Shown here in pieces: positions 5,374-33,782 of a stretch of 64,000 bases of DNA (position 1 is its first letter; every line of letters starts with the position of its first letter). A program made the translations under genes and the position numbers. Source of the stretch: a virus (taxonomy: Duplodnaviria > Heunggongvirae > Uroviricota > Caudoviricetes). The notes below the pieces were generated by a model. That model made no database searches. It was not told the DNA's origin and was given only the letters and a program-made list of their open reading frames with translations. The DNA lies in the IMG/VR virus record IMGVR_UViG_3300020156_000001, positions 106,321 to 170,320 of that record; one strand, given 5' to 3'.

Positions 5374-6060
5374 TTAGTTCAAGCGATAATCTTTGAATTG
5401 ACCAGGCTTGCTACCCACTACACGGGCAAACGGAACACCATCACGCTTCATGTATCGTACGTTATCACGCTTCGAAGCCGGAAGTATCGGAAGACGATCC
5501 ACATAAGAGGACTGCTTCGTCGAAGCATTCATTGTTCTTTCCGCACTTGCGAAAAGTGGCCGGGAATTAGTAGCGTATGCAGCTACACGATCGCCTGAAG
5601 GACGATCATATCGAACCATACGTGGACTATCGCCACAGTCTAGACCTGCACGTCGCATTGCACTGCCTGGCATATCGATGTCGCAAGCAATATAGTGGGC
5701 TGCACGTAGATATCGACGATCACCAGTAGCAGCAGCCATTGCACCCATTGTGCTGATCCAGCTGCGACCATTACAGTCTTCGTCTTTTCGTGTTGTACCG
5801 AACGAAATGCCGATACCTGTTACTGAACCACCACCGCTTGCCGATTGGGCGCAAACAATTGATCCCGCTGCAAGCCCTGGGGCAATAGCTGATGGAGTAG
5901 TGTGAACCCGTGTATTACGGGGAATATCTGCACCATACGTGCTAACACCAACATTGACGTTATTGTTAGCATTTGATCCAGCTGACGAAGTTTGTGCCAT
6001 AGCTTGGCCTGAAACCAAAGCAATTGCGGACGCAAACAATGCGATTTTAAGAGTTTTCAT
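5374..6060 (-). CDS. Putative secreted protein
   Basis: MKTLKIALFASAIALVSGQAMA signal peptide; Cys-containing core. Confidence 0.75.
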   Translation of the reverse strand: MKTLKIALFASAIALVSGQAMAQTSSAGSNANNNVNVGVSTYGADIPRNTRVHTTPSAIAPGLAAGSIVCAQSASGGGSVTGIGISFGTTRKDEDCNGRSWISTMGAMAAATGDRRYLRAAHYIACDIDMPGSAMRRAGLDCGDSPRMVRYDRPSGDRVAAYATNSRPLFASAERTMNASTKQSSYVDRLPILPASKRDNVRYMKRDGVPFARVVGSKPGQFKDYRLN

Positions 6061-6393
6061 GTTCGATCTTCCCTCAGGTTAGGCCACTGTTGCGGGCCCT
6101 TTACAACGCTATACTAAAGCTTACTGAGGATATACTTGCTGTCCCACTTTCCATCCCCTGCAAGTAGCCGCATAATTGCTAATAAAATGTGCATTGTCAA
6201 ACGACATTACTGGTAAAACCATAGCATTTTCGTTTAGGACTTGGCACATCAACAAAAACATGATGTTGTATAGTTAATATATTAGGAAAAACTTGCGTAT
6301 TGTTAATTGCAAAGCGTTTTACTTCGCTAAAGCAATAAAATTACGACATCCGTATAGCGGGCGCAAAAAAGTTTTATGAAACCGTTGATATGG

Positions 6394-6417
6394 AAAAAGC
6401 TCCCTCGTGGGAGCTTT
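6394..6417 (-). terminator. Intrinsic terminator after tRNA-Ser
   Basis: AAAAGCTCCC-ACGA-GGGAGCTTTTT on minus strand. Confidence 0.75.
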
Positions 6418-6505
6418 TGGCGGGCGCCTGAGGATTCGAACCCCATCCCTTGCGGGACCATCAGTTTTCAAGACTGCGCTTGTAACCCGTACAAGCTAAA
6501 CGCCC
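6418..6505 (-). tRNA. tRNA-Ser(UGA)
   Basis: Cloverleaf, loop CTTGAAA, long variable arm, GCCA end. Confidence 0.9.
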
Positions 6506-8374: not shown

Positions 8375-8450
8375 TGGTGCGGGGTACGGGGTTCGAACCC
8401 GTGACATGCGATTTTAGAGATCGCCGCTCTACCAACTGAGCTAACTCCGC
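8375..8450 (-). tRNA. Amber suppressor tRNA (CUA)
   Basis: GCGAT-CTCTAAA-ATCGC anticodon arm, normal D and T arms, ACCA end. Confidence 0.85.
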
Positions 8451-32666: not shown

Positions 32667-32741
32667 TGGATCCCCTTGATGGATTCGAACCACCGACCAA
32701 CCTGCTTTGCAGGGTGCTCTACCTGGCTGAGCTAAAGGGAC
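32667..32741 (-). ncRNA. tRNA mimic with 3-nt anticodon loop
   Basis: Canonical D and T arms and CCA, but CCTGC-AAA-GCAGG. Confidence 0.7.
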
Positions 32742-32849: not shown

Positions 32850-32927
32850 TGGTGCCCCAGGTCAGACTCGAACTGACATCCTTCGCATTCTAAGTGCGAC
32901 ACCTCTACCAAATTGGGCTACTGGGGC
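32850..32927 (-). tRNA. tRNA-Leu(UAG), short variable loop
   Basis: Loop CTTAGAA, ACCA. Confidence 0.87.
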
Positions 32928-32930
32928 AAG

Positions 32931-32999
32931 TGAGAGCAAGTGAGCGATCTGGGGTCGGTTTGATTTCAAGTCAAGATAACCCAAATCAGTCGGCTCTCA
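32931..32999 (-). ncRNA. Y-RNA-like hairpin, copy 1
   Basis: TGAGAGC-CGA...TTTGGGTTATC...CCCCAG...CTCACTT-GCTCTCA. Confidence 0.6.
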
Positions 33000-33004
33000 A
33001 AAGT

Positions 33005-33081
33005 TGGAGTGTCTGACAGGACTCGAACCTGCATACAATCACCTTCGTAGGGTGGCGTTCATCCAGTTGAACTACAGACAC
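33005..33081 (-). tRNA. tRNA-Arg(ACG)
   Basis: Loop CTACGAA, CCA. Confidence 0.88.
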
Positions 33082-33095
33082 ATAGATGTACTTAG

Positions 33096-33169
33096 TCAGG
33101 GTAGCTGGATTTGAACCAGCGTTGCCACTTTCCAAAAGTGACCGAATAACCAGGCTTTCTCATACCCTG
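33096..33169 (-). tRNA. tRNA-Pro(UGG), ends CTA, inside long inverted repeat
   Basis: Loop TTTGGAA; GATGTACTTAGTCAGGGTA/TACCCTGACTAAGTACATC. Confidence 0.82.
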
Positions 33170-33189
33170 ACTAAGTACATCAAATTGTT

Positions 33190-33268
33190 TGGAGCACCCG
33201 GTCAGACTCGAACTGACATCAATCCAATTACCTTTGACCACGTTCGTAGCGTGGGGGGTTACGGGTGC
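33190..33268 (-). ncRNA. Rearranged tRNA-like RNA (anticodon arm precedes D-like arm), ACG loop
   Basis: GCACCCG-TAACCCC-CCACG-CTACGAA-CGTGG-TCAA-AGGTAATTGGA-TTGA-T arm-CGGGTGC-T-CCA. Confidence 0.7.
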
Positions 33269-33304
33269 ATTTGTTGGGACTTACCGGCTAACCGTGCCCT
33301 TAAT

Positions 33305-33380
33305 TGGCGCCCCTGACGGGAATCGAACCCGCCTTTCTGCATAGACAGTGCAGAGTCTTCACCAGATGATCTACAGGAGC
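33305..33380 (-). tRNA. tRNA-Asp(GUC)
   Basis: Loop CTGTCTA, GCCA. Confidence 0.85.
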
Positions 33381-33384
33381 AAGT

Positions 33385-33446
33385 GTGGACAAGTGAGTTG
33401 CGCTGGGGAGCATCTAAAAAGGATAACCCAAAGCAGTTCGGTCCAC
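33385..33446 (-). ncRNA. Y-RNA-like hairpin, copy 2
   Basis: GTGGAC-CGAA...TTTGGGTTATC...CCCCAG...CTCACTT-GTCCAC. Confidence 0.6.
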
Positions 33447-33452
33447 GAGACT

Positions 33453-33527
33453 TGGAGCGGATAGCGGGAATCGAACCCGCTTCCAAACGTTGGCAACGTT
33501 TGATAATAACCAATATAATATATCCGC
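33453..33527 (-). tRNA. tRNA-Gly(GCC)
   Basis: Loop TTGCCAA, TCCA. Confidence 0.9.
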
Positions 33528-33753: not shown

Positions 33754-33782
33754 AGTCTAACAGTTTTGCGTTTCCGTGTCAA
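33754..33782 (-). promoter_or_regulatory. sigma70-type promoter of tRNA array
   Basis: TTGACA-17 nt-TAGACT. Confidence 0.8.

What the first reader, a model, noticed from the sequence alone, without database searches (positions are those of the whole stretch)
32931..33446. Two homologous Y-RNA-like hairpins embedded in the tRNA array
Seen: 32931-32999 and 33385-33446 share 5' stem-C-CGA(A)CTG-TTTGGGTTATC...CCCCAG...CTCACTTG-stem 3'. Their terminal stems differ in sequence but stay fully paired (TGAGAGC/GCTCTCA vs GTGGAC/GTCCAC), i.e. compensatory change. Established: the Ro60/Rsr-binding helix of Y RNAs has a bulged C in a 5' ...CCGA motif opposite a 3' ...CACUUG... strand, and bacterial Rsr/Y RNA systems associate with RNA repair and tRNA-damage responses. 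Copy 1 also ends in TTGA-CTTGAAA-TCAA, a perfect anticodon-loop mimic (UGA). Inference: phage Y RNAs or Ro60 decoys. No Ro60 gene is visible in this window.
Basis: partly seen in the sequence, partly recalled or inferred. Interest (0 to 1): 0.8.

Follow-up and report, generated by a model that had tools for sequence, protein, structure and literature searches.

The report
Small Y RNAs inside phage tRNA operon
The two hairpins are most likely genes for small Y RNAs, the RNA partners of the Ro60 protein that this 480-kb phage encodes elsewhere in its genome; they sit between tRNA genes, so tRNA-processing enzymes probably cut them out of the tRNA precursor.

Summary
Both hairpins lie on the minus strand, each 3-5 nt from a tRNA gene on either side. 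They share a 5-6 bp closing stem, a bulged C, CGA paired with UUG, a second helix ending in GGG, and a UUAUC box.

The phage genome (480,347 bp; nearest named relative Sinorhizobium phage Phosso) encodes a full-length Ro60 about 99 kb past the window end. It also holds three longer, YrlA-like copies with the same handle.

A covariance model built only from seven look-alikes in other viral contigs finds exactly these two sites in the window and in the whole genome (E 2e-10 and 3e-9). Across 47 members, 94.7% of cells pair and 14 of 18 pairs show compensatory change.

Records holding such elements encode Ro60 in 13 of 17 cases, against 1 of 19 controls. In small phages the elements lie just upstream of Ro60.

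No Rfam family matches.

Verdict: a new, uncatalogued variant of a known kind, the hairpin-type Y RNA. This scan earlier reported Ro60-like proteins with other handle RNAs in other phages.

The parts
32931..32999 (-). Short Y RNA gene, copy 1 (69 nt from stem to stem; the full inter-tRNA piece is 32928-33004, 77 nt)
   Evidence: Covariance model R1, built from other phages: 47.9 bits, E 3.3e-9. Fold z -4.9. Syntenic homolog in Phosso between tRNA-Arg and tRNA-Leu, with a compensatory stem change.
32994..32999 (-). Copy 1, 5' strand of the closing stem (UGAGAG); pairs with 32931-32936 (CUCUCA)
   Evidence: pairs 1-6 of the family structure covary.
32990..32993 (-). Copy 1, bulged C (32993) plus CGA (32990-32992), which pairs with UUG of ACUUG at 32937-32941: the presumed Ro60-binding site
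   Evidence: C-G 47/47, G.U 46/47 and A-U 44/47 across the family. The motif resembles GGUCCGA of vertebrate Y RNAs and GNCGAA of bacterial Y RNAs (PMC4201824).
32975..32988 (-). Copy 1, 5' strand of helix 2 (UGAUUUGGG, 32980-32988; pairs with 32945-32953) followed by the UUAUC box (32975-32979)
   Evidence: The spacing CGA-N-9 nt ending in GGG-UUAUC is the same as in the published human Y4 5' fragment (PMC7012775).
32960..32974 (-). Copy 1, apical hairpin UUGA-CUUGAAA-UCAA (4 bp, 7-nt loop shaped like an anticodon loop)
   Evidence: It matches 14 of 15 bases of the hairpin in the long tRNA-like copy L016:1224-1337. The Phosso ortholog keeps the stem with loop CUCUUAA.
33385..33446 (-). Short Y RNA gene, copy 2 (62 nt from stem to stem; the full inter-tRNA piece is 33381-33452, 72 nt)
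   Evidence: R1: 52.7 bits, E 2.3e-10. Fold z -2.5. Syntenic homolog in Phosso between tRNA-Gly and tRNA-Asp (64.5 bits).
33438..33446 (-). Copy 2, closing stem 5' strand GUGGA (33442-33446; pairs with UCCAC at 33385-33389), bulged C (33441), and CGA (33438-33440; pairs with UUG in ACUUG at 33390-33394)
   Evidence: Phosso has GUGGG/CCCAC, so the A-U pair has become G-C.
33411..33435 (-). [quoted passage not shown]
   Evidence: The same UAUC/GAUG hairpin with a U-rich loop recurs in Phosso, L016, L021 and L049.
33005..33081 (-). tRNA-Arg(acg) with encoded CCA, 5 nt upstream of copy 1
32850..32927 (-). tRNA-Leu(tag), starting 3 nt after copy 1. RNase P cleavage at its 5' end would set the 3' end of copy 1 (inferred).
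33453..33527 (-). tRNA-Gly(gcc), the first tRNA of the array, 5 nt upstream of the model's match to copy 2 (33384-33447)
33305..33380 (-). tRNA-Asp(gtc), starting 3 nt after the model's match to copy 2
33754..33782 (-). Sigma-70-type promoter-like site (TTGACA-17-TAGACT with TG) heading the tRNA array; the likely start of the precursor that carries both Y RNAs
   Evidence: No minus-strand terminator-like site was found from there down to 32600, the lower edge of the scan, and there is no room for a promoter between the elements and their tRNAs.

Best explanation
The two elements are genes for small (about 62-77 nt) hairpin-type Y RNAs, the RNA partners of the phage's own Ro60 protein.

Each RNA is a rod with four parts:
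- a 5-6 bp closing stem;
- the conserved Ro60 site (a bulged C, then C-G, G.U and A-U formed by CGA and UUG);
- a small internal loop and a second helix of 8-9 bp ending in GGG/CCC;
- a UUAUC box leading into a short apical hairpin.

They have no promoter of their own. They are transcribed inside the polycistronic tRNA precursor that starts at the promoter near 33754-33782. They are released by the enzymes that mature the neighbouring tRNAs. RNase P cutting at the 5' end of the downstream tRNA, 3 nt after the stem, makes the Y RNA 3' end. 3'-end processing of the upstream tRNA, 5 nt before the stem, makes its 5' end.

The free RNAs then bind phage Ro60 through the handle. They lack the tRNA-like module carried by three longer paralogs in the same genome. 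Most likely they therefore act as 'gate' or competitor Y RNAs that control access of other RNAs to Ro60, while the long tRNA-like copies tether Ro60 to a host nuclease such as PNPase.

Shown here: the structure, the covariation, family membership, a Ro60 gene in the genome, the association of the family with Ro60, and the tight flanking by tRNAs. Inferred: transcription, the processing route, Ro60 binding, and the gate role.
For: 1. Independent model. A covariance model from seven elements of other viral contigs finds only these two sites in the window and in the whole genome (E 2.3e-10 and 3.3e-9).

2. Covariation across 47 members.
- 94.7% of cells pair, against 67.6% in shuffles.
- The covariation score is 0.735, against 0.214 in shuffles (0 of 500 reach it) and about 0.1 when the partner columns are slid.
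- 14 of 18 pairs show compensatory change.
- The CGA/UUG pairs are invariant.

3. Ro60 in the same genome. It is 604 aa with TROVE and Ro60 vWA domains, and matches human and Xenopus Ro60 at E about 1e-106. Phosso also has Ro60 and syntenic copies of both elements with compensatory stem changes.

4. Association with Ro60.
- Of 118 pattern matches in IMG/VR, 20 have a paired closing stem where about 0.9 is expected.
- Their records encode TROVE in 13 of 17 cases, and in 6 of 6 records that are at least 90% complete. Controls give 1 of 19 (p 1.2e-5).
- In 12 of those 13 records a copy lies within about 1.5 kb upstream of Ro60 on the same strand, often two or three in tandem.

5. Named phages. 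The model hits beside Ro60 in Gordonia phage Forza, Vibrio phage BONAISHI and (weakly) mycobacteriophage Bxz1.

6. Paralogs in this genome. Three long copies carry the same handle around a permuted tRNA-like module, which is the YrlA architecture.

7. Link to tRNAs. 19 of 39 short members lie within 30 nt of a same-strand tRNA, and 8 are sandwiched with at most 11 nt on each side.

8. Literature.
- The Ro60-contact motifs are GGUCCGA and GNCGAA.
- Hairpin-type Y RNAs with small pyrimidine-rich loops (YrlB, Yrn2) exist.
- M. smegmatis YrlA is cut by RNase P (all PMC4201824).
- Phage phiLo Ro60 binds two phage Y-like RNAs and host PNPase (PMC12135203).
Against: - No Rfam Y_RNA or YrlA hit on either element, even at E<=10 on the element alone.
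- The two elements are about 130 kb from the Ro60 gene, so the linkage argument rests on homologs, not on these copies.
- The discovery pattern was derived from these elements, so conservation of CCGA, GGTTATC and ACTTG among the pattern-found members is partly circular. The stems, helix 2 and the Ro60 association were not part of the pattern. Members found only by the model show the box as GGUUAYC or looser.
- There is no expression or binding data.
- No PNPase (RNase PH domain) and no RtcB are present in the phage, so any nuclease partner would have to come from the host.
Confidence: 0.8

Rival explanations
1. Decaying relics. The elements are deletion derivatives of long tRNA-like Y RNAs that lost the tRNA module and now ride along in the tRNA operon without function.
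For: The closing stem and 5' half of copy 1 are nearly identical to those of a long paralog in the same genome (own genome 77619-77756). Its apical hairpin matches an internal hairpin of a long copy in a related phage.
Against: Both are kept at the same tRNA junctions in Phosso, where the region is about 77% identical, and the stem changes are compensatory. Short forms are a widespread class that also lies directly upstream of Ro60 in small phages. Their two helices covary strongly.
Confidence: 0.07
2. Spacer hairpins that serve tRNA-operon processing (for example nuclease entry sites or folding insulators between tRNAs) and have nothing to do with Ro60.
For: They sit 3-5 nt from tRNAs on both sides. 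No Rfam Y RNA model matches.
Against: An insulator would not need an invariant CGA/UUG with a fixed G.U pair and a GGUUAYC box. The same RNA occurs without tRNAs directly upstream of Ro60 genes. Records holding it are strongly enriched for TROVE. Most tRNA junctions in this array have no such element.
Confidence: 0.05
3. Anticodon-loop decoys. The apical 7-nt loops mimic anticodon loops and soak up host anticodon nucleases or modification enzymes. This could hold with or without Ro60.
For: Copy 1 has the loop CUUGAAA on a 4-bp stem. Its Phosso ortholog has CUCUUAA, so both fit CU-NNN-AA. Related long copies carry anticodon-arm-like hairpins, one with a CUCAUAC loop.
Against: The 'anticodon' differs between orthologs. 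The stem is 4 bp, not 5. Loops of the copy-2 type (CUUUUUA, UUUUGCU) and most family loops do not fit the anticodon-loop consensus. Conservation is concentrated in the handle, not the loop.
Confidence: 0.05

Closest known systems
Hairpin-type bacterial Y RNAs: S. Typhimurium YrlB, M. smegmatis YrlB, D. radiodurans Yrn2 (Chen et al. 2014, PMC4201824)
   Same: [quoted passage not shown] They carry the GNCGAA-type motif near the 5' end. They coexist with a longer tRNA-like Y RNA in the same genome. M. smegmatis YrlA and YrlB are processed from one precursor.
   Different: The known ones are encoded within about 2 kb of rsr. The two here lie in a tRNA array about 130 kb from Ro60 and touch tRNA genes on both sides. 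Sequence homology to YrlB or Yrn2 could not be tested, because no sequences were held. The GGUUAYC box is not mentioned in that paper.
YrlA (Rfam RF02553), the tRNA-like Y RNAs of bacteria and 22 phages
   Same: The handle type is the same. Three long paralogs in this genome have the YrlA layout: handle, T arm, closed acceptor-like stem, D arm.
   Different: The two window elements have no T or D arm. The best YrlA score at the locus is 14.6 bits against a threshold of 69, and there is no hit on copy 1 when it is scanned alone. Even the long paralogs reach only 27.5 bits.
Vertebrate Y RNAs (Rfam RF00019), for example human Y4
   Same: Both have a closing stem, a bulged C, and CGA paired with UUG. 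The spacing is identical: CGA, one base, a 9-nt helix strand ending in GGG, then UUAUC (human Y4 5' fragment in PMC7012775). The phage Ro60 is closer to human and Xenopus Ro60 than to D. radiodurans Rsr.
   Different: Vertebrate Y RNAs are about 84-112 nt (my own knowledge). They have large pyrimidine-rich loops, are made by RNA polymerase III, and end in a U tract bound by La. No Rfam Y_RNA hit was found here.
Thermus phage phiLo Ro60 with Yrl1 and Yrl2 (NAR 2025, PMC12135203)
   Same: A phage-encoded Ro60 with two phage-encoded Y-like RNAs that carry a CGAA motif in a stem-bulge-stem fold. Binding to the phage Ro60 and formation of a complex with host PNPase were shown there.
   Different: Yrl1 and Yrl2 lie directly upstream of the Ro60 gene, not in a tRNA array. 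Whether they fit the model built here was not tested.

Membership tests
Y RNA (functional class: small RNA partner of Ro60/Rsr) | Closing helix with a bulged C and the conserved CGA strand opposite UUG (the Ro60 contact site) | tested here: met
   Present in both elements. C-G 47/47, G.U 46/47 and A-U 44/47 across the family.
Y RNA (functional class: small RNA partner of Ro60/Rsr) | A Ro60/TROVE gene in the same genome | tested here: met
   G000:C1:268991-270805 (-), 604 aa. TROVE 2.3e-49 and Ro60 vWA 6.6e-50. E 1.5e-106 to human Ro60.
Y RNA (functional class: small RNA partner of Ro60/Rsr) | Gene located next to Ro60 (the criterion of Chen et al. 2014: within 4 kb) | tested here: not met
   The two elements are about 130 kb from Ro60. 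The criterion is met by homologs: in 12 of 13 Ro60-bearing records a copy lies within about 1.5 kb upstream.
Y RNA (functional class: small RNA partner of Ro60/Rsr) | Physical binding to Ro60, and stable accumulation that depends on it | not testable with these tools
   This needs EMSA, RIP or Northern blots.
YrlA (Rfam RF02553) | Score at or above the gathering threshold (69 bits) | tested here: not met
   14.6 bits (E 6.8) for a match that spans the neighbouring tRNAs. No hit on copy 1 when scanned alone at E<=10.
YrlA (Rfam RF02553) | tRNA-like module (T arm and D arm) within the handle | tested here: not met
   Absent from both elements. Present in three paralogs outside the window.
Metazoan Y_RNA (Rfam RF00019) | Match to the covariance model | tested here: not met
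   No hit at E<=10, despite the shared CCGA-N8-GGUUAUC with human Y4.
Hairpin-type bacterial Y RNA (YrlB/Yrn2) | [quoted passage not shown] | tested here: met
   Copy 2 has the 7-nt loop CUUUUUA. Copy 1 has CUUGAAA, which is less pyrimidine-rich. The description is taken from PMC4201824. This is a match of shape only; homology was not tested.
tRNA | Cloverleaf recognised by ARAGORN or Rfam RF00005 | tested here: not met
   Neither tool calls a tRNA at 32928-33004 or 33381-33452.

The most novel reading that the evidence does not exclude
Giant phages run a multi-RNA Ro60 system whose short 'gate' Y RNAs are made in step with the phage tRNAs, because they are cut out of the same precursor by RNase P and the tRNA 3'-end enzymes. 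Long tRNA-like Y RNAs from their own promoters act as tethers. Together with phage Ro60 they would watch over or protect the phage's large tRNA pool, for example against misfolded or nuclease-damaged tRNAs. The handle, including the GGG-UUAUC junction shared with human Y4, would be an ancient Ro60 contact conserved from phages to vertebrates.
Probability: 0.2. Interest if true: 0.75.

Novelty: new variant of a known kind. Interest (0 to 1): 0.55.

Why it matters
Y RNAs and Ro60 are known from animals, bacteria and some phages. Published searches looked only within 4 kb of Ro60, required a tRNA-like module, and discarded hits that overlapped tandem tRNA genes (PMC4201824). This finding matters for four reasons.

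1. It defines a compact, strongly covarying, uncatalogued class of handle-only Y RNAs. The class is spread across many Ro60-encoding phages, named ones included.
2. In giant phages these genes have moved into tRNA operons far from Ro60. That points to a simple biogenesis route through tRNA processing. It also means Ro60-centred searches undercount Y RNAs.
3. The handle and the adjoining GGG-UUAUC junction match human Y4. This gives a testable candidate for a conserved Ro60 contact.
4. It offers a tractable system, Phosso on Sinorhizobium meliloti, for asking what a phage Ro60 particle does during infection.

Tried and rejected
- Rfam at gathering and at E-value thresholds, on the window, on the local region and on copy 1 alone, gave only tRNAs. 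The YrlA match at 14.6 bits is a tRNA-spanning artefact.
- Rfam found nothing in the 3.9-kb locus (L002) around the own Ro60 gene.
- RtcB (PF01139) and the RNase PH/PNPase domain (PF01138) are absent from the phage. An RNA-ligase domain gives only a sub-threshold hit of 19 bits. An RNA-repair operon context is therefore not supported.
- A plain MAFFT alignment of 15 Ro60-adjacent elements recovered only the closing stem with RNAalifold, because helix 2 was misaligned. I replaced it with a hand-checked seed and a covariance-model alignment.
- My contiguous-pairing script mis-assigned helix 2 of copy 2. The model alignment gives the correct register.
- I considered a degenerate-tRNA reading. I rejected it because there is no cloverleaf and no T loop.
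- The plus-strand folds are as stable as the minus-strand folds. I chose the minus strand because all flanking tRNAs, the promoter and every paralog lie on that strand, and because the invariant G.U pair exists only in the minus-strand RNA.
- The host genome could not be searched by name. Whether the host has its own Rsr is unknown here.

Full report
**What is in the sequence**

The window carries 49 tRNA genes, all on the minus strand. Both elements lie on that strand, in two short gaps between tRNAs.
- Copy 1 is 32931-32999, between tRNA-Arg(acg) and tRNA-Leu(tag).
- Copy 2 is 33385-33446, between tRNA-Gly(gcc) and tRNA-Asp(gtc).

Read as RNA, each has these parts in order:
- a closing stem (UGAGAG/CUCUCA in copy 1, GUGGA/UCCAC in copy 2);
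- one extra C;
- CGA facing UUG;
- a small internal loop;
- a second helix ending in GGG/CCC;
- the box UUAUC;
- a short apical hairpin.

Both fold better than shuffled controls (z -4.9 and -2.5).

**What the genome is**

The window is bases 106321-170320 of a 480,347-bp viral record with direct terminal repeats. Its nearest named relative is Sinorhizobium phage Phosso (469 kb), about 77% identical over 69% of the 2.5-kb query from this tRNA region.

Phosso has both elements at the same tRNA junctions. Their closing stems are changed but still paired: GUGGG/CCCAC, and GCGAG/CUCGC.

**The missing Ro60**

A search of the whole genome with the TROVE family finds one gene, about 99 kb beyond the window end.
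- It encodes 604 aa with a TROVE domain (2.3e-49) and the Ro60 vWA domain (6.6e-50).
- It aligns over residues 15-530 of human and Xenopus Ro60 (E about 1e-106). That is better than its match to D. radiodurans Rsr (5e-90).
- Phosso has the ortholog (65.9% identity), annotated 'Ro-like RNA binding protein'.
- RtcB and PNPase-type domains are absent from the phage.

**Paralogs in the same genome**

A regular-expression scan of the genome finds the handle five times, always on the minus strand. Two are the window elements. The other three are 128-138 nt long, at 71.9-77.8 kb.

In those three the same handle encloses a T arm, a closed acceptor-like stem and a D arm. That is the permuted tRNA-like layout described for YrlA (PMC4201824). 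Unlike the window elements, they have their own TTGAC-N17-TATAnT-type promoter boxes, and at least two are followed by hairpin terminators. Rfam YrlA reaches only 27.5 bits on one of them.

A sixth, much longer relative lies just upstream of Ro60. It has a canonical handle in Phosso and a diverged one here.

**A family beyond this phage**

The closing stem was not part of the pattern. Even so, 20 of 118 matches have at least 5 contiguous pairs there, where about 0.9 is expected (binomial p about 3e-21).

The records holding these stem-validated elements encode TROVE in 13 of 17 cases, and in 6 of 6 records that are at least 90% complete. Among records whose pattern match lacks a stem, 1 of 19 does, and that match is weak. 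Fisher's exact p is 1.2e-5.

In the smaller records the elements lie 0.15-1.5 kb upstream of Ro60 on the same strand, often two or three in tandem. In the giant records (416-465 kb) the other copies lie more than 100 kb from Ro60, some of them in tRNA arrays, and two of the three also keep a copy beside Ro60.

**Membership and covariation**

I built a covariance model (R1) from seven short elements of other viral contigs, none from this genome or Phosso, using a hand-checked structure of 18 pairs.
- In the 64-kb window it returns only copy 2 (52.7 bits, E 2.3e-10) and copy 1 (47.9 bits, E 3.3e-9), with nothing else up to E 10.
- The same two are its only hits in the whole genome.

Over 26 sources it finds 47 members. 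On their alignment:
- 94.7% of cells pair, against 67.6% in column shuffles;
- the covariation score is 0.735, against 0.214 in shuffles (0 of 500 reach it) and about 0.1 for slid partners;
- 14 of 18 pairs show changes on both sides;
- the three pairs of CGA/UUG do not vary (C-G 47/47, G.U 46/47, A-U 44/47).

Fixed sequence in the handle with free covariation around it is what a protein-binding site flanked by structural helices should look like.

One caveat applies. CCGA, GGTTATC and ACTTG were in the discovery pattern, so their invariance among pattern-found members is partly built in. Members found only by the model show the box as GGUUAYC or looser, which is still recognisable.

**Named phages**

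358 GenBank phage records encode a homolog of this Ro60. R1 gives these hits:
- Gordonia phage Forza: one hit exactly between its tmRNA and a tRNA-Arg, 0.8 kb from Ro60.
- Vibrio phage BONAISHI: one hit 0.47 kb upstream of Ro60.
- Agrobacterium phage Atu_ph07: two intergenic sites.
- Mycobacteriophage Bxz1: one weak hit 0.33 kb upstream of Ro60.

None of these sites is annotated.

**Link to tRNAs**

Of 39 short members, 19 have a same-strand tRNA within 30 nt. Eight are sandwiched with at most 11 nt on each side. Those eight include both window copies, whose model matches leave gaps of 5 and 3 nt.

A promoter-like site (TTGACA-17-TAGACT) sits at 33754-33782 upstream of the first tRNA. No minus-strand terminator-like site lies between it and 32600, the lower edge of the scan.

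I therefore infer co-transcription with the tRNAs and release by RNase P and the tRNA 3'-end enzymes. RNase P cleavage of a Y RNA has precedent in M. smegmatis YrlA (PMC4201824). This step is inference and was not shown here.

**Comparison with what is known**

Chen et al. 2014 define the bacterial motif GNCGAAN0-1G and relate it to the vertebrate GGUCCGA contacted by Ro60. [quoted passage not shown] The window elements fit that second type in shape.

The published human Y4 5' fragment reads GGUCCGA-U-GGUAGUGGG-UUAUC (PMC7012775). That is the same spacing and the same GGG-UUAUC junction as the phage consensus. That the 3' strand of vertebrate Y RNAs reads CACUUG is my own knowledge; I did not check it here.

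Phage Ro60 with phage Y-like RNAs has been shown biochemically for Thermus phage phiLo, including a complex with host PNPase (PMC12135203). A jumbo-phage survey mentions TROVE proteins only in passing (PMC7824862).

I found no paper that describes handle-only Y RNAs embedded in phage tRNA arrays. The 2014 pipeline explicitly discarded hits overlapping tandem tRNA genes and hits more than 4 kb from Ro60.

**Function**

The best-supported reading is that both RNAs bind phage Ro60 through the handle. They lack the tRNA-like effector module, so I favour a gate or competitor role next to the long tethering copies. This follows the gate-and-tether model for bacterial Y RNAs (PMC4201824). It is inference.

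The anticodon-mimic idea has limited support. The apical hairpin of copy 1 matches 14 of 15 bases of an anticodon-arm-like hairpin in a long copy of a related phage. However, the loop triplet differs between orthologs, and loops of the copy-2 type do not fit.

**Earlier notes of this scan**

Other readers had flagged the Ro60 island in this genome and the promoter heading the tRNA transcript. I re-derived both independently. In other phages the scan reported Ro60-like (DUF2828) proteins beside small RNAs with a different handle, some of them in tRNA arrays. Those concern a different protein and RNA family. They show that the general theme has been seen before in this scan.

**Verdict**

This is a new, uncatalogued variant of a known kind. 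Expression, ends and binding remain to be shown.

Noticed in passing
window 33181-33268 (-): A tRNA-like gene that ARAGORN and Rfam both miss. It has acceptor GCACCCG/CGGGTGC plus CCA, a T arm GTCAG-TTCGAGT-CTGAC, and a 5-bp stem with the 7-nt loop CUACGAA (ACG, as in the tRNA-Arg next door). It has no obvious D arm and an extra region of about 20 nt.
   Followed up: partly
own genome 71905-72032, 72441-72575 and 77619-77756 (-), outside the window (L003 5905-6032, 6441-6575, 11619-11756): Three YrlA-like RNAs: the same Y handle around a permuted tRNA-like module. Each has its own TTGAC-N17-TATAnT-type promoter boxes, and at least two have a hairpin terminator. Between two of them (L003 about 6040-6440) lies a run of further promoter-plus-hairpin mini-units of unknown nature.
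   Followed up: partly
own genome about 272030-272200 (-), upstream of Ro60; Phosso L008 from 1495: A long structured RNA beside Ro60. In Phosso it opens with the canonical CCGA-N8-GGTTATC and closes with CACTTG. In this genome the handle has diverged to GCCGC...TTTTG.
   Followed up: partly
Gordonia phage Forza MK814760.1 89017-89080 (-) (L181): A short Y RNA of the same family fills the 70-nt gap between the annotated tmRNA and tRNA-Arg, 0.8 kb downstream of the Ro-like gene. It is not annotated.
   Followed up: partly
L100 5380-5455 (-): ARAGORN reports a tRNA with a four-base anticodon (gtga) 1 nt from a short Y element in an IMG/VR contig.
   Followed up: no
window 8375-8450 (-) and 32667-32740 (-): A tRNA with anticodon CUA, which would read amber (ARAGORN labels it Pyl). 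Also a weak tRNA-Phe(aaa) at 33.6 bits, beside a normal tRNA-Phe(gaa).
   Followed up: no
own genome 268991-270805 (-), Ro60 gene (L002 826-2640): By phmmer score the phage Ro60 is closer to human and Xenopus Ro60 (E about 1e-106) than to Deinococcus Rsr (5e-90). Its Y RNAs share the GGG-UUAUC junction with human Y4.
   Followed up: partly
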